A stretch of DNA of 64,000 nt from Escherichia phage LPEK22. The position numbers were made by a program, and so were the translations under genes. Below, piece by piece: positions 42,549 through 51,238 of this stretch. Where the stretch lies: sequence record OK283619.1; one strand, written 5' to 3'. Position 1 is the first letter of the stretch. Every line of letters starts with the position of its first letter. The notes below the pieces were generated by a model that had not been told where the DNA came from, searched no databases, and worked only from the letters and a program-made list of their open reading frames with translations.

Positions 42549-42572
42549 TATAATCCGTTATTCACTAAACAA

Positions 42573-42600
42573 CAGAGGCTATAATGGCCTCTGTTTTTGT
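42573..42600 (+). terminator. Rho-independent terminator
   Basis: cagaggc/gcctctg stem with tataatg loop, followed by tttttg. Confidence 0.7.
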
Positions 42601-42617: not shown

Positions 42618-43823
42618 ATGAAAGATAAACCACATGACATCCCATATTGCGGTGTCCGTGAAACCAAAATCAAATCAGCCCATCCTATGTTAAGTTCATT
42701 CCACCGCCAGCTGGCATATGAATGGATGAGGGATCGTTATGCGATACATGTCAAGAAGGACGTGCAATGCCTTCCAGCGCCATGGACGGATAATCCGGTA
42801 TTACGCCAAGTCAAGTTTTGTAACGTGCGGAGAGAGCACGATAGGCAGTCTCGAAATTTGATCAATAATATCATCCTCGATCAGGATCTCACGCTATCTG
42901 ACAAAATGTTCAACTGTGTATTGTTCCGCATGTACAACATGTGGGAACCTATACAGGCTTTGGGTGGTCCATGGACGATCGAAGAATTCGGAAACATAAA
43001 TCTTGAATGGTGTCGAGATGTTCTTCAGGAATTCGAATCTAAAGGTGGCAAAGTTTTCACCAATGCGTTTAATACAGGCGGTCTGAAACAATGCCTGGCT
43101 TTCCCTGAACTAGTTGTCAACCACAAGGAGCAACGCTTTGGCGGCATGAAGGTAAAAGTCCATCGGGTTGGCGGTGTTATAGATGAAATGGATTACAAGG
43201 TTGCCAAGAAGCTGGCCGAAGATAATCCTGGTGAATACAAAATAGAAGGCTGGGAACCATACATGCCGATGCGAGTCATCCGCTCTTTGAAGGCATTCGT
43301 CAACAAACACCCTCATTACTTTGATCGCCTCAGGGAATTTAGCCGTCCCGACTCTGTTTACCAGGCGATGTATGACGACATTGAGGGGCTTGGACCATTC
43401 TTGGCATACCAGATTTGGGTTGATTTTACATACATCGATGAATATCCATTCAGTGAAAACCACTTCACTATCGCTGGTCCAGGTTGCCGTGCTGGTATCG
43501 ATCTGTTATTTTTGGACAAGGACGGCATGACGCATGAAGAATGCATATTCTGGGTTCGTGATCATCAAGATCAATTGTTCGCTCAGTACGGGTATAAACG
43601 TAATGAATTTTGGTCGGCAGAAGAACCGGAAGACCGTTGCATGAATGTTATGCAGTTGGAGAACATGTTCTGTGAACTTCAGAAATATACCCGCTGCGTT
43701 GAGGCGGTGATGCGCGGGGAGAAACCTCGAGGAAAGGTGGGGTATAATGGTGGTGAAGTTAATCAGCCATTACAGAAGACTCCCGTTCGTTCTATTAATC
43801 TGTTAGAGAAGATGAAAAAATGA
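42618..43823 (+). CDS. Hypothetical protein (401 aa), unassigned enzyme-sized ORF
   Basis: ATG at 42618 with RBS agagagga (track start is TTG). No P-loop, no thymidylate-synthase or ThyX motif seen. Confidence 0.55.
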   Translation: MKDKPHDIPYCGVRETKIKSAHPMLSSFHRQLAYEWMRDRYAIHVKKDVQCLPAPWTDNPVLRQVKFCNVRREHDRQSRNLINNIILDQDLTLSDKMFNCVLFRMYNMWEPIQALGGPWTIEEFGNINLEWCRDVLQEFESKGGKVFTNAFNTGGLKQCLAFPELVVNHKEQRFGGMKVKVHRVGGVIDEMDYKVAKKLAEDNPGEYKIEGWEPYMPMRVIRSLKAFVNKHPHYFDRLREFSRPDSVYQAMYDDIEGLGPFLAYQIWVDFTYIDEYPFSENHFTIAGPGCRAGIDLLFLDKDGMTHEECIFWVRDHQDQLFAQYGYKRNEFWSAEEPEDRCMNVMQLENMFCELQKYTRCVEAVMRGEKPRGKVGYNGGEVNQPLQKTPVRSINLLEKMKK

Positions 43824-44227
43824 AACCCGTAAAACATCATCGTTCATGGAAAGTATGCCCAGCGTGTTCAAGTCGGGCGACAAAATTGTTCAACATGAAT
43901 ACTGGGAAATATGAATGTCAAGTCTGTCGGCATCATTATGATGATCCAAAATGTCGATCTTTGGTCGACAAAATTTATAAATTTATCATTTTGTTGGGTA
44001 ATTGCGAGCAATATCAATATACCGTGTATGGTGATAGTTTAAGCCAGATCGATAAACATCTTTTGAAATTGATTTCGAAATACGATAAAGAAAGCAAGCG
44101 CCCTGTGCGCGTTGTGAGTACTCCAAAGGGTTATCCAAAGGGAACAAGATCAGTTACGGTTGTTGGTTACACCAGTTATGACGGGAAACGGTTCAGAAGT
44201 ATTCGAGTAAACATGATTCCCGTTTAA
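43820..44227 (+). CDS. Zinc-ribbon protein (135 aa)
   Basis: CPAC...CQVC pattern. ATGA overlap with the upstream gene. Confidence 0.5.
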   Translation: MKPVKHHRSWKVCPACSSRATKLFNMNTGKYECQVCRHHYDDPKCRSLVDKIYKFIILLGNCEQYQYTVYGDSLSQIDKHLLKLISKYDKESKRPVRVVSTPKGYPKGTRSVTVVGYTSYDGKRFRSIRVNMIPV

Positions 44228-44323
44228 ACTTTTCAATAAATCTTTTCAGCGTATATTGACCTCACTTTAACGACGCGCCCCGATAAGGGCGCTCACTTTG
44301 AACTGAAACAGGAAGACTATACC

Positions 44324-46342
44324 ATGGCAGAATTCAAACCCTTCGCAACGGCAGTTAATAACAACGTGCTGGCGATGTCCGCAACTGGTCTGTTCATGAC
44401 CAATATCGATAAAGATGCTCTTTGGGATCTGTATCTGGCATCTTTCCCTGCTGGTACTAACCCGCTGTACCGCGAACGTACTGAACACGATTGCACCTGC
44501 TGTAAACAATTCATCCGTAACATCGGCGGTGTTGTCACCATCGATTCAGAACTGAACGTAATTTCTATCTGGGACAACATTGATCTGGGTAATGAATATG
44601 ACGTGGTGGCTGCGGCTCTTTCCGCGTATGTCAAACAACACGCAATCGTCGATGTTTATTTTAACGATTCTGCCAAAGTCGGCCTGTCTCACAATCACGA
44701 ATCTGGTGAAGATGGCAAAATCCGTACTTACAATCATTTCCATACCCAATTACTTGGTAGCTATGTTCTGCGTCCGGACGCAATCGCTTCGAAAAAAGGT
44801 GAAATCCGCCAGGCTATTGAATTGTTTGAACGCGGTCTGCGTGAAATTACTCTGGAATCAGCTGAAATCGTTCTGGAACTGATTGACCAGAATTCTCTGT
44901 ATCGCGGCGCAGAACACAAAGCAGCAGTGAAGGGATTTGTTGAAACCAAAAAGGCATATGAACAAGTCCCCGAATCAGCCCGTTCTCTTTGGGCATGGCA
45001 TACTGGATACCGTTCAAACAATCATGTTCCACACGGCATCCGCAACACAGTTATCGGCACTCTGCTGACAGATATCAGCGAAGGCGTGGAACTGGAAAAG
45101 GCTGTTAAATCGTTTGAATCCAAAGTTGCTCCGGCGAACTACAAACGTCCGACAGCGCTGGTTTCAAAATCCATGATCGAAAACGCTCAGAAAGAAGTTA
45201 TTGCTCTGGGTTTGGAAGACTCACTGGCGCGTCGTTATGCGGTTTACGATGATCTGACAATCAACAACGTTCTGTTCGCAGATCTGGCCGCTCAGAAAGC
45301 GATGGATCCGTTTGCACAGCTGGCCGCCGAAGTGAAAACTCCGACCAAATCCCTGGAAAAAGTTGAAGAGATCAGCGTTGATGATTTCCTGAGCAATGTT
45401 CTGCCAAAAGCGCATTCAATGGAAGTGCTTGTAGAGAATTCTCATACTAGCAACCTGATGTCCCTGGTTGCTCCGGCGAACCCAGATGCGCCTAACCTGT
45501 TCAAGTGGAACAACGGTTTCTCCTGGTCTTACAACGGTGAAGTGACCGATTCCATTAAAGAACGTGTAAAGGCTGCTGGTGGTAAAGTTGACGGGTATCT
45601 GCGCGTTTCCTTGGCGTGGCACAACAACGACGACCTCGATCTGCATATGTTCAACAACATGGAGCACGTTTACTTCCGTGATCGCCGCTCTATGACAGGT
45701 GCCCATCTGGATATCGATATGAACGGTATGGATGGTATTGATCCAAACCGCGCTCCGGTGGAAAATATCATCTTTACAGATGAAAGCAAGCTGCGCGATG
45801 GTGAATACCGTTTCGAAATCCACAACTACAATCAACGTGAAAAAATCGACGAAGGGTTTGAAGTCGAAGTAGAATACAAAGGCGCAACGCATCGTTTCAG
45901 CCATCCTGGCCTGAAAGATCAGGGGCGTATCACTGCAGTCATCCTGACTGTTAAAGACAAACAAGTTGTTGGCATTAAGTCCGAACTGGCTAATGTTGAT
46001 AAGTCTAAAGAAGTTTGGGGTATCAAGACCGCGACCTTCCAGAAAGTACAGCTGGTTCTGAATTCACCAAACCATTGGGATGGGGAGCAAACTGGTAACA
46101 AGCATGTGTTCTTCATTCTTGAAGGCTGTGCTAATCCTGAAGGTACTCGTGGTTTCTACAACGAATATCTGAAGCCGGAACTGGATAAACATCGTAAGGT
46201 TTTTGAAATGTTGGGTAGTAAAATGAAAGTCCAGCCGAATGAAAACCAACTGTCCGGTCTGGGATTCTCGACGACGCAACGCAACCACGTGTTCGTCAAA
46301 GTGTCCGGCGCGTTTAACCGTACTGTAAAAGTCATTTTCTAA
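44324..46342 (+). CDS. Hypothetical protein (672 aa), unassigned
   Basis: Long clean ORF with ATG and upstream caggaagactataccATG context. No motif recognised by eye. Confidence 0.6.
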   Translation: MAEFKPFATAVNNNVLAMSATGLFMTNIDKDALWDLYLASFPAGTNPLYRERTEHDCTCCKQFIRNIGGVVTIDSELNVISIWDNIDLGNEYDVVAAALSAYVKQHAIVDVYFNDSAKVGLSHNHESGEDGKIRTYNHFHTQLLGSYVLRPDAIASKKGEIRQAIELFERGLREITLESAEIVLELIDQNSLYRGAEHKAAVKGFVETKKAYEQVPESARSLWAWHTGYRSNNHVPHGIRNTVIGTLLTDISEGVELEKAVKSFESKVAPANYKRPTALVSKSMIENAQKEVIALGLEDSLARRYAVYDDLTINNVLFADLAAQKAMDPFAQLAAEVKTPTKSLEKVEEISVDDFLSNVLPKAHSMEVLVENSHTSNLMSLVAPANPDAPNLFKWNNGFSWSYNGEVTDSIKERVKAAGGKVDGYLRVSLAWHNNDDLDLHMFNNMEHVYFRDRRSMTGAHLDIDMNGMDGIDPNRAPVENIIFTDESKLRDGEYRFEIHNYNQREKIDEGFEVEVEYKGATHRFSHPGLKDQGRITAVILTVKDKQVVGIKSELANVDKSKEVWGIKTATFQKVQLVLNSPNHWDGEQTGNKHVFFILEGCANPEGTRGFYNEYLKPELDKHRKVFEMLGSKMKVQPNENQLSGLGFSTTQRNHVFVKVSGAFNRTVKVIF

Positions 46343-46379
46343 TTGATTTGACCACAAATTCGTAATAAGGAACAATGAA

Positions 46380-46751
46380 ATGTTTGATCAAGCAACCCGT
46401 TTAAAACTGCGTTTCAACTCTAACAAAGGTCTGCTGTCTGTTGAGCAGGTTTGGGATCTGAACCTGAATGCCCTAAACGAACTGGCGAAAGACCTCAGCC
46501 GTCAGGTGAAGGAAGCCGCCAGCGATGAAGAAGATTTCATCGGCGTGAAAAGCGCAGTCGACTCTCAGTTACAACTGCGTTTCGATATCGTGAAAGCGAT
46601 CATCGGTGTCAAACTGAAAGAACGTGACGAAAGCGCAACCGCCGCCGAACGTAAAGCGAACAACCAGGTTATTCTGGAACTGATCCAGCGTAAGAAACAG
46701 CAGGAGCTTGAAGGTAAATCTGTTGAAGAACTGGAAGCGCTGTTGAAATAA
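46380..46751 (+). CDS. Hypothetical coiled-coil protein (123 aa)
   Basis: ATG with RBS taaggaa. Followed by a strong terminator. Confidence 0.5.
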   Translation: MFDQATRLKLRFNSNKGLLSVEQVWDLNLNALNELAKDLSRQVKEAASDEEDFIGVKSAVDSQLQLRFDIVKAIIGVKLKERDESATAAERKANNQVILELIQRKKQQELEGKSVEELEALLK

Positions 46752-46771: not shown

Positions 46772-46800
46772 CAACCCCGCCTTGTGCGGGGTTTCTTTTG
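46772..46800 (+). terminator. Rho-independent terminator
   Basis: ccccgccttgtgcgggg hairpin plus tttcttttg. Confidence 0.75.
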
Positions 46801-46810
46801 GAGAAATATT

Positions 46811-47047
46811 ATGAAACAAATTACTAAGACAGTACAAATCACCCAATATCAAACGGATGACGGCAGAGTGTTCGATACTCTTGGTCAGGCCGAACATTAT
46901 GAGAAGATGAAGTCCGGTATTCGCAAGGTATGCCCTTCTTGTGATGGCAAAGGTCGCGACTCTCCGTCTGGCGACGGGCGTGATATGACGACTTGTCATT
47001 ATTGTGGTGGTAAAGGCTGGGTAGAAAAGAAAGAGATATGGGGTTAA
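46811..47047 (+). CDS. Small zinc-ribbon protein (78 aa)
   Basis: ATG at 46811 (track start is GTG). CPSCDGKG...CHYCGGKG. Confidence 0.4.
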   Translation: MKQITKTVQITQYQTDDGRVFDTLGQAEHYEKMKSGIRKVCPSCDGKGRDSPSGDGRDMTTCHYCGGKGWVEKKEIWG

Positions 47048-47457
47048 TGAAACCTGTCATCTGTGATTACTGCGGCCTTCCTGCCAAATACGTCGGGGGT
47101 GATGTTGTATACCCCCACCGCCCTGAACTCCGCAATCTGAAGTTCTGGGTGTGCACTCCATGTGACGCCCGAGTCGGTTGCCATAAACATGGTGATGGAA
47201 AGACCCCTATGGGAAGGATGGCGAATGCCGCTCTCCGTGCTGCTAAGCAGGAAGCTCATAGGTCGTTTGACCCTATCTGGAAAAGTGGGCAGAGGAGCAG
47301 GAGTGATGCTTACAGCTGGCTGGCTCATAATCTGGGGATCAAGAAGCGCGATTGCCATATCGGCTTGTTCGATATCGACACGTGCCGTAAAGTAATATCT
47401 GTGTGTGACCAACTAGAGGTGTCAAACGATGTCAAAGGAAATACAAGAATCTTTTGA
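47047..47457 (+). CDS. Cys-rich hypothetical protein (about 136 aa)
   Basis: ATG overlapping the upstream stop (TAATG). CDYCG...CTPCD pattern. Confidence 0.4.
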   Translation: MKPVICDYCGLPAKYVGGDVVYPHRPELRNLKFWVCTPCDARVGCHKHGDGKTPMGRMANAALRAAKQEAHRSFDPIWKSGQRSRSDAYSWLAHNLGIKKRDCHIGLFDIDTCRKVISVCDQLEVSNDVKGNTRIF

Positions 47458-48858: not shown

Positions 48859-49029
48859 ATGACCAAACCATTTTTGCGTTCAGGAGTTGACTCTCTTGAC
48901 TCACAGTTTAAACCCAGCGAAGTTTTAATCCAACAGATTGAAACTAATCGCGAATTCATAGAACACATGCTGGCGAAGCCGGAAGGTGAAGCCGTCCATA
49001 CCACTAAAGAAGGTAATAACGATGATTGA
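48859..49029 (+). CDS. Possible small ORF (56 aa)
   Basis: ATG with RBS aaggga. Overlaps the start of the vWA gene. Under 60 aa, so absent from the track. Confidence 0.2.
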   Translation: MTKPFLRSGVDSLDSQFKPSEVLIQQIETNREFIEHMLAKPEGEAVHTTKEGNNDD

Positions 49030-51238
49030 ATCATTAACATTTAAGAATGCGGTTGCGACCGTCGCGCCGTCTAACCATGTAATCGTTGTGGATATCTCCG
49101 GTTCCATGTATCGTTCACTTCCAGAAGTCCGTAAGCATCTGAAGGAGAACCTGCCTTCCCTGGTGAAACCGGAAGATACTGTGAGCATCCTTTACTTTTC
49201 ATCTCGCGGTGATTTCGGAACGGTATTTGCCGGACGTCAGATTAACAGTGCAACTGACCTCAGTGAGATCAATAATCTAATTGACCGTTTCCTGAAGCCT
49301 TCTGGTTGTACTGGTTTTGTTGAGCCGCTGAAACTGGCTGCGGAAACTGCCATTAGCCTGAATAAACCTGGTTATGTTAACAACCTGGCATTCATGACCG
49401 ACGGGTATGACAACTGCTGGCGTTCTAATGAAATCCTGGATGCCGCTGAAGTACTGCCCAAAGCGTTTGATAACATTACCTTCATCGAATACGGTTGGTA
49501 TTGTAATCGCGAACTGCTGGGGCTAATGGCAGAACGTTCTGGTGCGACCCACGTATTCGCCGAAGGACAGAATGAATATCAGACCGAATTGGAAAACGTG
49601 CTGAAAACTTCTTCACCGAAAGTTGTAGTCGATGTTCCTCTGGTTTATACCCATGCCATTTATGTTGAAAATGGCGTGGCGACTGTTTTAGCTGTGCATC
49701 CTGATGAAGAGCACCCTATTGGCCACGTCAGCATCCCTGAAAGCGTTTCTCAGCTGTGGGTTGTAAACCCCAACATGATCGACCAGCTGGATAATCTGGC
49801 AGACATCCAAGCGGCATACGTGCTGGCATTTTACGGCGTGTATACCATGGACGCCGATCTGGTCTGGGCCGCGCTGAAGAAGACGGGTGACGTCCGCTTC
49901 ATCAAACAGTACAGCAACTGTTTCACCAAGCAGGACTATTCCAACATCAAAGTCGATCTGACTCAGGCTATCGTAGACGAATCTCTGCGAGGAGTTGATG
50001 GCATCGATTATAATATGGTTCCGGCTGAAGACGCCACCACCATTGTTGATGTTCTGACGTATCTGGCTGAAGCAGATGTCTCTATCGTCACCAAGCATCC
50101 ACTATTCTCTTACAAGAGCATTGGGCGCGGTACTGTACAGAAAGTTGATGACACCGAAGACAAGTTGGCCGAAGAGATTGCGAATGCGACTTCTAAAGAA
50201 GAGCGTAAAGCCCTGGCGCTCAAACTGGCCGAGCACGAAGATTGGACCCCCGAATTCAATCCGGTTGATGATAAAGGGATTGTCCCGATCAGCAATTTGG
50301 TCTACAATTCAGAACGTCCTAACATCAGTGTGCAGACAGTTCAACACGGAACGGTTGTTGTGCCTGAGTTTGTACAGAAGAAATATGAACTTCCTGAAGA
50401 GCTGGGGACCTGGCGTTATCGCAATTACACCATTGTCAAGGATGGTATCATCAACCTGAAAACAATGCCTATCACTGCAGATTCTCCGATTGTTCGGGCT
50501 AAGGTGGCACAGGATTTGACTGCCATGGGTGTTCATGTGTTTGGTGGACCGGAAGTCTTCATTGTAAATCTGGAAAGTGTCCCAATGGTTAACCGCGCCA
50601 TGACAAAGAATATCAGTGCTGCTGAATTCTTTGCAGACAATGTGCGCCGTGAAGCATTGAAGGCAAAACAGAAAGTTCTGAAATTCTACCGTGATGAACT
50701 GGTTGGTAAAGGCAACGCTACTGGTCTGGCTTCAAAATATGGCAAAGAAGCAGCTGATTTCCTGTCAGCAAACGGAATTCGCGACTATGGATTTTCACCG
50801 AAGACTTCTTCTGTAGAATCAACCGATGTCTATATGAGTCGTGAATTGAATGTGAAAATCAAAGGCGCATCTTCACTGCCGAGCATCGCGTCTGTTATCA
50901 AAAAACAGACGGACGGTAAAAAACTGAATGTCGCTGATCAGCTGATCGCTAATGCCCTGGCTGAATACAATGCATTTGTTAAATCGCCGATGATCACCAG
51001 CGTACCGGAAGAGACTCAGAAAAAGCTGATTGAAAGCTGGATCGGAGACGCAGCAAAAGCGGCCATTAACGAAGTCCGCGCCCTGAACAAAACGCTGTCC
51101 AAGGTAGTTTATGGGATTGTTGCAGGCCATGGTTGGTTTACCGACCTGGATTTGGAAGAATCCACTATGGATGTGGAAGTTGATGGGGTGAAATACACCG
51201 TCACTGCCGAACTGGCTGAAAAAGAAGTCAAAATCTAA
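49022..51238 (+). CDS. von Willebrand factor A (vWA) domain protein with MIDAS motif (738 aa)
   Basis: ATG at 49022 with RBS aaagaaggt (track start is GTG). N-terminal VVDISGSM...FMTDG fits the MIDAS pattern (DxSxS...T...D). Long C-terminal region unassigned. Confidence 0.7.
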   Translation: MIESLTFKNAVATVAPSNHVIVVDISGSMYRSLPEVRKHLKENLPSLVKPEDTVSILYFSSRGDFGTVFAGRQINSATDLSEINNLIDRFLKPSGCTGFVEPLKLAAETAISLNKPGYVNNLAFMTDGYDNCWRSNEILDAAEVLPKAFDNITFIEYGWYCNRELLGLMAERSGATHVFAEGQNEYQTELENVLKTSSPKVVVDVPLVYTHAIYVENGVATVLAVHPDEEHPIGHVSIPESVSQLWVVNPNMIDQLDNLADIQAAYVLAFYGVYTMDADLVWAALKKTGDVRFIKQYSNCFTKQDYSNIKVDLTQAIVDESLRGVDGIDYNMVPAEDATTIVDVLTYLAEADVSIVTKHPLFSYKSIGRGTVQKVDDTEDKLAEEIANATSKEERKALALKLAEHEDWTPEFNPVDDKGIVPISNLVYNSERPNISVQTVQHGTVVVPEFVQKKYELPEELGTWRYRNYTIVKDGIINLKTMPITADSPIVRAKVAQDLTAMGVHVFGGPEVFIVNLESVPMVNRAMTKNISAAEFFADNVRREALKAKQKVLKFYRDELVGKGNATGLASKYGKEAADFLSANGIRDYGFSPKTSSVESTDVYMSRELNVKIKGASSLPSIASVIKKQTDGKKLNVADQLIANALAEYNAFVKSPMITSVPEETQKKLIESWIGDAAKAAINEVRALNKTLSKVVYGIVAGHGWFTDLDLEESTMDVEVDGVKYTVTAELAEKEVKI

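What the first reader, a model, noticed from the sequence alone, without database searches (positions are those of the whole stretch)
44324..46342. Unassigned 672-aa ORF
A long, clean ORF with ATG and RBS and no motif I could place. It is followed by a coiled-coil protein and then a strong terminator, so the genes from 42618 to 46751 may form one transcription unit of unknown function. Its size and position make it the best candidate in the window for an undescribed enzymatic activity.
Basis: inference. Interest (0 to 1): 0.5.

Follow-up and report, generated by a model that had tools for sequence, protein, structure and literature searches.

The report
Conserved unknown phage protein pair
The 672-aa ORF is real and belongs to DUF8224, a very large family of unknown function found in phages and bacteria; its core matches no solved protein fold and it is almost always followed by one small partner gene, but what it does is still not known.

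Summary
The ORF (44324..46342, +, ATG, 672 aa) is confirmed. The window is a Kuttervirus (ViI/Cba120-like) genome.

**Family.** The protein belongs to Pfam PF26675 (DUF8224). The family has more than 4,400 clusters at 50% identity and is typically 40-50% identical over the full length across unrelated large phages and many bacterial phyla.

**What I found:**
- The 123-aa gene downstream (46380..46751) is the only conserved neighbour. It follows DUF8224 in 142 of 147 loci.
- A short form lacks the insert, and the partner is absent from all 7 short-form loci examined.
- C57-x-x-C60, H138 and several Arg/Glu are invariant in both forms.
- The "DNA-directed RNA polymerase" label in some GenBank records has no support.
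- The upstream 5-hmdU DNA kinase is not evolutionarily linked to the ORF.

**Function.** Not determined. My best guess (about 0.3) is a metal- or redox-dependent factor of nucleic-acid or nucleotide metabolism, possibly an accessory to end repair. RtcB, RNA ligase, Thg1-like and RlaP genes lie next to it in a few loci, but the enrichment is not significant once the discovery loci are excluded (p ~0.1).

The parts
44310..44315 (+). Shine-Dalgarno-like AGGAAG, 8 nt upstream of the ATG
   Evidence: Read directly from the sequence.
44324..46342 (+). DUF8224 (PF26675) family protein, long form, 672 aa
   Evidence: ORF. PHROG 1735 matches over the full length. Homologues at 49-97% identity carry the PF26675 tag. 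AF2 model has pLDDT 85.
44324..44773 (+). N-terminal alpha/beta domain of the core (aa 1-150), holding the invariant C57-x-x-C60 and H138
   Evidence: AF2 secondary structure. Invariant columns in the long + short alignment A5.
44492..44503 (+). Codons for C57-T58-C59-C60: a CxxC at the N-cap of helix 58-67. C57 and C60 are invariant in long and short forms; C59 is not.
44735..44737 (+). Codon for H138, invariant in long and short forms
44774..45223 (+). All-helical domain (aa ~151-300), with conserved R170, W225, Y273, R275
45224..45532 (+). First half of the C-proximal alpha/beta domain of the core (aa ~301-403), with R303, R304, W395, N397, W401. It includes a low-confidence loop at aa 332-346.
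45533..46015 (+). TerD-like beta-sandwich insert (aa ~404-564). It carries an acidic cluster (D437, D439, D463, D465, E480, N481) and is absent from short-form homologues.
46016..46342 (+). C-terminal part of the core (aa 565-672, plus the stop codon), with W565, P582, W585, E614, E628, G645
   Evidence: Aligns to the C-terminus of the short form. Invariant columns.
46380..46751 (+). Conserved 123-aa partner protein (PHROG 2018); no Pfam family
   Evidence: Lies directly downstream on the same strand in 82 of 84 loci and 60 of 63 viral loci. It is 36-47% identical across unrelated phages. It is absent from 7 of 7 short-form loci.
46773..46803 (+). Terminator-like hairpin plus T-run that ends the pair

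Best explanation
The ORF encodes a long-form DUF8224 protein.

Shown:
- It has a compact core built from the N-terminal ~400 and C-terminal ~110 residues, and this core matches no solved fold.
- The core carries an invariant CxxC (C57, C60) at a helix N-cap, an invariant His (H138), and invariant or nearly invariant Arg and Glu residues (R52, R170, R275, R303, R304, E614, E628).
- A TerD-like beta-sandwich is inserted at about residues 404-564.
- The gene forms an autonomous two-gene module with the ~125-aa gene immediately downstream. That partner was found next to long forms and in none of the short-form loci examined.

Inferred:
- The CxxC/His centre binds a metal (Zn or Fe) or is redox-active.
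- The Arg-rich conserved surface binds a phosphate-bearing ligand, either a nucleic-acid end or a nucleotide.
- The TerD-like insert together with the partner acts as a regulatory or adaptor unit, for example sensing Ca2+ or a nucleotide-derived ligand, as has been proposed for TerD domains.

Most likely role: a factor in phage nucleic-acid or nucleotide metabolism expressed with the replication genes. My specific guess is an accessory to the 'healing and sealing' of broken RNA or DNA ends, working alongside ligases and end-modifying nucleotidyltransferases, possibly to counter host nucleases.
For: Conservation and size of the family:
- More than 7,500 clusters at 90% identity and 4,493 at 50%.
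- 558 phage records from unrelated lineages.
- 158 hits in bacterial and archaeal genomes, at 39-49% identity over the full length.
- Micromonosporaceae copies are a median 88% identical to each other.

Module:
- The partner is adjacent in 142 of 147 loci, and no other neighbour is conserved.

Architecture:
- AF2 models: long form pLDDT 85, short form pLDDT 91 with pTM 0.74.
- The short form aligns to query residues 24-401 and 565-666 only.
- The partner profile hits 4 of 4 long-form control loci and 0 of 7 short-form loci.
- Invariant residues come from the joint long + short alignment.

Context:
- In the window the ORF sits among clamp loader, RegA, MazG and 5-hmdU kinase genes.
- In viral contigs it sits among PolA, DnaB, a UvrD-type helicase and ATP-dependent ligases.
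- Tight same-strand adjacency occurs in a few loci: RtcB - module - HD - RlaP in Bradyrhizobium; Thg1-like - RlaP - module in a Siminovitchia prophage; DUF8224 - RNA ligase - partner - Macro in a Lachnospiraceae contig; module - HD - RlaP in a viral contig; and short form - x - PNK - ligase in Bosavirus.
- Repair/ligase-category genes are concentrated within 1.5 kb of the module (14 of 30 genes against 22% expected, p = 0.003).
- The literature treats TerD domains as putative ligand sensors (PMC7824862 and PMC7159879).
Against: - No catalytic or binding activity has been shown, and no known fold supports a nucleic-acid role.
- The repair/ligase enrichment is post hoc. With the loci that supplied the seed sequences removed, it is not significant (p = 0.12 by gene, 0.08 by locus).
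- About 90% of non-redundant loci have no such gene within 1.5 kb.
- An unbiased Pfam census of 146 immediate neighbours is heterogeneous. The top family is Macro, in 3 of 146.
- Large phages commonly carry ligases and RlaP, so some proximity is expected by chance.
- Other contexts point to nucleotide or NAD metabolism instead: RNR, DHFR, NAMPT, NMNAT, Nudix.
- Metal binding by the CxxC/His centre and Ca2+ binding by the insert are inferred, not tested. The insert lacks a Pfam TerD match.
Confidence: 0.3

Rival explanations
1. It is a nucleotide-pool or NAD-related enzyme, or a redox partner. The CxxC centre would work on nucleotide metabolism, for example by supporting ribonucleotide reductase or by countering host nucleotide or NAD+ depletion, rather than on polynucleotide ends.
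For: - Short forms lie directly after RNR genes in Bosavirus and Pamexvirus.
- They lie near DHFR, NMNAT and PnuC, and Nudix-NrtR and NAMPT.
- In the window the ORF follows MazG and the 5-hmdU kinase.
- A dUTPase is among the immediate neighbours in one locus.
- The CxxC sits at a helix N-cap, as in thiol-disulfide oxidoreductases.
- Weak Rdx-family Pfam hits appear in 6 of 69 members.
- In Pigmentiphaga the gene lies near DsbB and DsbA-like genes.
Against: - These neighbours are even less consistent than the repair genes, and I did not test them for enrichment.
- A protein of 540-670 aa is very large for a redoxin.
- The Rdx hits are near noise (best E 0.02).
Confidence: 0.2
2. It is a non-enzymatic sensor, sponge or adaptor in phage-host conflict. 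The TerD-like insert and the conserved pocket would bind a signalling nucleotide or Ca2+, and the pair would sequester or relay that signal, as defence in bacteria and as counter-defence in phages.
For: - It is an autonomous two-gene module in non-syntenic, variable contexts.
- Its neighbours include type I R-M genes, McrBC, Imm68 and Macro.
- It occurs in both phages and bacteria, including lineages that are rich in conflict systems.
- TerD domains have been proposed to recognise specialised nucleotide derivatives (PMC7159879).
Against: - There is no hit to any PADLOC defence model.
- 40-50% identity across phyla is unusually high for conflict proteins, which typically diversify quickly.
- The short form lacks the putative sensor insert but keeps all the invariant core residues, so the core must have a function of its own.
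Confidence: 0.15
3. It is an extra component of the ViI-type thymidine hypermodification pathway, because it lies two genes downstream of a 5-hmdU DNA kinase.
For: - The upstream gene is a 5-hmdU DNA kinase (PF18723, E 1.6e-83).
- Terminator-like hairpins bracket the kinase-to-partner stretch, so the genes may be co-transcribed.
- Some other carriers are phages with hypermodified thymine (SP-15, Pamexvirus). This last link rests on my own background knowledge.
Against: - The ViI modification 5-NeOmdU was reconstituted from kinases gp67/gp243, transferase gp247 and decarboxylase gp226 without this protein (PMC8989533).
- No kinase-like cluster is conserved next to DUF8224 in 147 loci.
- The family is widespread in bacteria and in phages where no such kinase is adjacent.
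Confidence: 0.04
4. It is a DNA-directed RNA polymerase, as annotated in some GenBank and RefSeq Kuttervirus records.
For: Only the product names in records such as Se-B YP_009948979.1, FrontPhageNews QPX74303.1 and pSC20. In the FrontPhageNews paper, putative functions for hypothetical proteins came from Phyre2 structure prediction, and no specific basis for this label is given (PMC10892097).
Against: - No polymerase family hit in Pfam, NCBIfam or PHROGs.
- No polymerase hit in PDB sequence searches.
- There is no DxDGD-type catalytic loop inside a double-psi barrel. The Asp-rich motifs lie in the TerD-like sandwich, which short forms lack altogether.
- Most records call the protein hypothetical.
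- A 2024 review of the Ackermannviridae does not mention any phage RNA polymerase.
Confidence: 0.01

Closest known systems
TerD-family Ca2+-binding beta-sandwich proteins (Klebsiella TerD, PDB 2KXT; Streptomyces SCO6318, PDB 2QZ7)
   Different: The similarity covers only about a quarter of the protein, as an insert inside an unrelated core. There is no sequence-level match to a TerD Pfam model. No ter operon genes are nearby. Ca2+ binding has not been tested.
DUF2135 / YfaP (COG4676)
   Same: Weak sequence similarity: 9 of 69 family members hit PF09906. The Bcp1 homologue carries a COG4676 note.
   Different: All hits fall below the curated threshold (best E 0.018), and the window protein itself gives no hit. 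DUF2135 is itself of unknown function.
Accessory or scaffold components of RNA-repair operons (systems built around RtcB or Rnl ligases with RlaP and Thg1-like nucleotidyltransferases)
   Same: In a few loci the module is embedded in, or directly flanked by, RtcB, an RNA ligase, Thg1-like, RlaP, HD and Macro genes on the same strand.
   Different: It has no fold or sequence similarity to any known repair protein. The association appears in only about 10% of loci and is not significant once the discovery loci are removed. The module is otherwise autonomous.
CxxC thiol-disulfide oxidoreductases and zinc-knuckle sites
   Same: An invariant CxxC sits at the N-terminus of a helix, with a conserved His nearby in the sequence.
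Pneumovirus M2-1 core domain (PDB 5NKX)

Membership tests
Pfam PF26675 (DUF8224) | Match to the family model over the conserved core | tested here: met
   This is indirect. The local Pfam copy lacks the model. Homologues from 97% down to 49% identity, and the short forms, all carry the precomputed PF26675 tag, named DUF8224. PHROG 1735 matches residues 1-672.
TerD family | TerD beta-sandwich fold | tested here: met
TerD family | Sequence match to the TerD Pfam model | tested here: not met
   No TerD-family hit appears for the query, or among the 25 families listed for its 69 relatives, even at E <= 1. Only sub-threshold DUF2135 hits appear.
TerD family | Ca2+ binding by acidic loops | not testable with these tools
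   Conserved D437, D439, D463, D465, E480 and N481 are compatible with metal binding, but no binding was measured or modelled.
DNA-directed RNA polymerase (multisubunit/YonO-type double-psi barrel, or T7-type right hand) | Polymerase catalytic fold and catalytic Asp motif | tested here: not met
RNA-repair system component | Consistent operonic linkage to an RNA ligase and end-modifying enzymes | tested here: inconclusive
   Tight linkage exists in L017, L030, L032 and L151. At least one repair/ligase-category gene lies within 1.5 kb in 10 of 105 non-redundant loci (p = 0.003 overall), but p = 0.12 and 0.08 once the discovery loci are excluded.
ViI-type thymidine hypermodification pathway | Needed for the modification, or co-inherited with 5-hmdU DNA kinase / aGPT-Pplase genes | tested here: not met
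   The pathway was reconstituted without this protein (PMC8989533). The kinase is adjacent in Ackermannviridae only, and no kinase cluster is found among the neighbours in 147 loci.
Known anti-phage defence systems (PADLOC-DB v2) | Match to any defence protein model | tested here: not met
   No hit for the ORF or for the partner at E <= 0.1.
Thioredoxin-fold CxxC oxidoreductases | CxxC at the N-cap of helix alpha-1 within a thioredoxin fold | tested here: not met

The most novel reading that the evidence does not exclude
DUF8224 and its small partner form a previously unrecognised two-component system built on a new protein fold. It would be a metal- or redox-dependent enzyme that acts on damaged nucleic-acid ends or on a nucleotide-derived molecule. 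A TerD-like insert, bound by the partner, would switch it on or off. The system would be shared by many large lytic phages and by several bacterial phyla as part of the phage-host conflict over nucleic-acid integrity.
Probability: 0.3. Interest if true: 0.75.

Novelty: categorically new. Interest (0 to 1): 0.55.

Why it matters
This is one of the larger uncharacterised protein families in tailed phages: thousands of sequence clusters, and 558 cultured-phage genomes that include therapeutic Kuttervirus and Klebsiella phages. It is conserved at a level usually seen for core enzymes, yet it has no assignable fold or function.

The work here turns a bare "hypothetical protein" into a defined experimental target:
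- a fixed partner protein;
- a removable TerD-like module;
- a short list of invariant residues.

It also removes a misleading "RNA polymerase" annotation that is spreading through databases. If the protein proves to be an enzyme or a sensor of nucleic-acid or nucleotide metabolism, it would add a new fold and a new activity to phage biology. It could also explain part of how large phages cope with host nucleases or nucleotide-depleting defences.

The family already exists in Pfam as a DUF. The novelty therefore lies in fold, module structure and function, and the function is still unproven.

Tried and rejected
1. **Family scans.** Pfam, NCBIfam and PADLOC scans of the ORF gave nothing. PHROGs gave only families of unknown function.
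2. **PDB sequence searches**, with the single sequence and with a profile, gave nothing meaningful.
3. **Foldseek against the PDB** gave only generic Ig and PLAT sandwiches, none at E <= 1e-3.
5. **RNA polymerase annotation** was rejected (see rivals).
6. **Functional link to the 5-hmdU kinase** was rejected on comparative and literature grounds.
7. **The 750-aa vWA protein (48986-51238) as a third component** was rejected. Its phage distribution differs: KP15-like, Karam-like and Rhizobium phages.
8. **H55 and C59 as metal ligands** are not supported, because they are not invariant.
9. **An apparent 39 of 63 partner linkage in viral contigs** was an artefact. My ORF picker chose antisense shadow ORFs. 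The corrected figure is 60 of 63.
10. **Enrichment of repair/ligase genes** looked significant (p = 0.003) but is not once the discovery loci are excluded.
11. **Literature searches** for PF26675, DUF8224, TerD in phages and Kuttervirus transcriptomics found no experimental data on this protein. The Burroughs & Aravind 2016 RNA-repair paper (PMC5062991) is not in the library.
13. **The word-index search for the partner** found only 144 close relatives, none with a name.
Full report
**Observation.** The ORF is exactly as described: 44324..46342 on the + strand, ATG start, 672 aa. An AGGAAG hexamer lies 8 nt upstream of the start. A 123-aa ORF follows at 46380..46751, and then a terminator-like hairpin at 46773-46793. 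A second terminator-like hairpin lies at 42571-42595, ahead of the upstream kinase gene, and the scan finds no other + strand terminator between the two. Co-transcription of about 42.6-46.8 kb is therefore possible. A GC-rich hairpin without a T-run sits in the 96-nt gap before the ORF (44275-44292).

**Source.** The window is a Kuttervirus (Ackermannviridae; ViI/Cba120-like). The 4.4-kb stretch around the ORF is 99.8% identical to Salmonella phages Se-F and Se-G. The protein is 100% identical to Cba120 orf153. The surrounding genes are a T4-like replication block: clamp and clamp loader, RegA, MazG, helicases. The gene two positions upstream is a 5-hmdU DNA kinase (PF18723, E 1.6e-83).

**Family.**
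- The local Pfam copy, NCBIfam and PADLOC gave no hit. PHROGs gave only 'unknown function' families.
- Homologues carry the precomputed Pfam tag PF26675, named DUF8224.
- The family is very large. More than 7,500 clusters at 90% identity scored E <= 1e-3. There are 4,493 clusters at 50% identity, 1,237 of them at E <= 1e-30, and the top 150 are all full-length proteins of about 660-700 aa at 40-52% identity.
- It is present in 558 cultured-phage records from unrelated lineages: Ackermannviridae, 145-kb Klebsiella and Erwinia myoviruses, Caulobacter phiCbK-like phages, Bacillus Bcp1, TsarBomba and SP-15, roseophages, a cyanophage and Aeromonas phages.
- It is present in at least 577 IMG/VR contigs.
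- It has 158 hits in bacterial and archaeal genomes at 39-49% identity. These include many Micromonosporaceae, plus Myxococcota, Lachnospiraceae, cyanobacteria and Bradyrhizobium.
- Micromonosporaceae copies are 77-98% identical to each other (median 88%). Their GC content is close to that of the host, yet their flanks are not syntenic.

**The conserved unit is two genes.**
- I clustered all flanking ORFs in 84 loci. The only shared neighbour is the small downstream protein: 82 of 84 loci, same strand, with a gap of typically about 10-30 nt. The two exceptions end, or nearly end, at a contig edge.
- In 63 divergent viral contigs a partner profile finds it directly downstream in 60. An earlier count of 39 was an ORF-picking artefact.
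- The partner is 36-47% identical across unrelated phages. It has no Pfam family and no informative name in any source.
- Neither the kinase nor the zinc-ribbon gene upstream, nor the vWA protein downstream, travels with the ORF.

**Architecture.**
- The AF2 model of the window protein has pLDDT 85 and pTM 0.54.
- Sub-threshold DUF2135 hits in 9 of 69 members and a COG4676 note on the Bcp1 homologue are consistent with that assignment.
- A short form of 525-560 aa carries the same Pfam tag. It occurs in Bosavirus, Pamexvirus, Vibrio and jumbo Serratia phages and in some bacteria. It aligns to query residues 24-401 and 565-666 only.
- The sandwich (~404-564) is therefore an insertion into a conserved N+C core.
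- The partner profile hits all four long-form control loci (E 1e-34 to 1e-51). It hits none of seven short-form loci, even at E <= 10. The partner therefore co-varies with the insert.

**Conserved residues.**
- In an alignment of 12 long and 5 short forms the invariant polar residues are C57, C60, H138, R275, R303, N397, E614 and E628.
- R52, R170, R304, Y273 and several Trp are nearly invariant.
- C57-x-x-C60 sits at the N-cap of helix 58-67.
- H55 and C59 are not invariant.
- Within the insert, D437, D439, D463, D465, E480 and N481 are invariant among 69 long-form relatives.
- I infer a metal or redox centre next to an Arg-rich site that binds a phosphate-bearing ligand, and a possible divalent-cation site in the insert. 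None of this has been tested.

**Existing annotation.**
- Several Kuttervirus records name the ORF 'DNA-directed RNA polymerase'. The paper behind one of them assigned putative functions from Phyre2 predictions and gives no specific basis for this label (PMC10892097).
- No sequence or fold search supports a polymerase. I regard the label as wrong.
- That paper also reports 1-3 spectra for proteins so labelled in purified Sajous1 virions. Its authors note that low peptide counts may reflect contamination.

**Functional clues from context.**
- An unbiased Pfam census of 146 immediate neighbours is heterogeneous. Macro appears in 3, and RtcB, McrBC, Imm68, dUTPase and others appear once each.
- Some arrangements are striking:
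  - Bradyrhizobium: RtcB - DUF8224 - partner - HD(SpoT-like) - RlaP.
  - A Siminovitchia prophage: DnaB - primase-like - x - Thg1-like - RlaP - DUF8224 - partner.
  - A Lachnospiraceae contig: DUF8224 - RNA ligase - partner - Macro - HsdM - HsdS.
  - A viral contig: module - HD - RlaP.
  - Five viral contigs: a ~550-aa ATP-dependent ligase directly after the partner.
  - Bosaviruses: RNR - short form - x - PNK - DNA ligase.
  - A 121-kb phage contig: short form - Nudix - x - NAMPT ... HD - RlaP.
- Across 105 non-redundant loci, 14 of 30 repair/ligase-category genes lie within 1.5 kb of the module, against 22% expected (p = 0.003).
- I chose the seed families after seeing three of these loci. 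Without those loci the test gives p = 0.12 by gene and 0.08 by locus. The repair link is a lead, not a result.
- Nucleotide and NAD-metabolism neighbours (RNR, DHFR, NMNAT, NAMPT, MazG) are an alternative theme.
- The ViI thymidine hypermodification pathway was reconstituted without this protein (PMC8989533).

**Interpretation.**
- Solid: this is a real, deeply conserved, autonomous two-gene module. Its core has no recognisable fold, it carries an optional TerD-like insert, and the partner tracks that insert.
- Inferred: the protein is a metal- or redox-dependent factor in phage nucleic-acid or nucleotide metabolism, and the insert plus partner act as a regulatory or adaptor unit.
- My preferred specific reading is an accessory to end 'healing and sealing'. 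I put it at about 0.3.
- The rivals are a nucleotide-pool, NAD or redox role (0.2), a non-enzymatic sensor or sponge in conflict (0.15), a hypermodification accessory (0.04) and an RNA polymerase (0.01).

**Novelty and scores.**
- The sequence and the family are already in databases as a hypothetical protein and as DUF8224. No function, structure or publication exists for them.
- In fold and system organisation the module lies outside every characterised kind that I could test. I therefore rate it categorically new, with the caveat that its function is unproven.
- Interest is 0.55. It is a large, well-defined piece of phage 'dark matter' with concrete handles for experiments, but so far without a demonstrated or surprising mechanism.

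Noticed in passing
window 42618-43823 (+): This is a 5-hmdU DNA kinase (PF18723, E 1.6e-83). It marks the phage as one that hypermodifies thymidine, as ViI does. Most records annotate it only as hypothetical.
   Followed up: partly
window 44275-44292 (+): A GC-rich hairpin (GCGCCC-N6-GGGCGC) lies in the 96-nt gap before the ORF. It has no T-run and the scan does not call it a terminator. The fold z-score for the whole gap is -2.3. It could be an RNA processing or stability element, or a regulatory site.
   Followed up: partly
window 44324-46342; GenBank records Se-B (YP_009948979.1), FrontPhageNews (QPX74303.1), vB_SenAc-pSC20: A 'DNA-directed RNA polymerase' product name is attached to this ORF in some records. 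No sequence or fold evidence supports it.
   Followed up: yes
window 46784-47047 (+) and 47038-47457 (+): Two small zinc-finger proteins follow the terminator. One is an 87-aa DnaJ-type CxxCxGxG protein, labelled 'chaperone' in some records (weak PF00684). The other is a DUF3268 zinc-finger protein (E 1e-37).
   Followed up: no
window 48986-51238 (+): A 750-aa vWA-domain protein (PHROG 2426). It is shared with KP15-like and Karam-like T4-type phages and with Rhizobium phages. Its distribution differs from that of DUF8224. An acyl-carrier-protein-like gene follows it.
   Followed up: partly
L017:10512-12000, L151:3063-4545, L175:12313-13919: A SpoT-like HD (HD_4) gene directly followed by an RlaP nucleotidyltransferase gene recurs as a pair in a Bradyrhizobium chromosome and in two unrelated viral contigs. 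Each time it lies close to DUF8224.
   Followed up: partly
L032:2-7050: In a Lachnospiraceae MAG contig an RNA ligase gene sits between DUF8224 and its partner. A Macro-domain gene and type I R-M genes (HsdM, HsdS) follow. The arrangement looks like a defence island.
   Followed up: partly
L049-L085 (Micromonosporaceae loci): The DUF8224 + partner pair is 77-98% identical (median 88%) across genera such as Actinoplanes, Micromonospora, Salinispora and Dactylosporangium. Its GC content is 65% against 69% in the flanks. The flanking genes show no synteny. This combination of strong conservation and variable location is unexplained.
   Followed up: partly
L087:6552-7631 (Bacillus phage Bcp1): In Bcp1 an AAA-type ATPase gene directly follows the partner. 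This was not seen in the other lineages examined.
   Followed up: no
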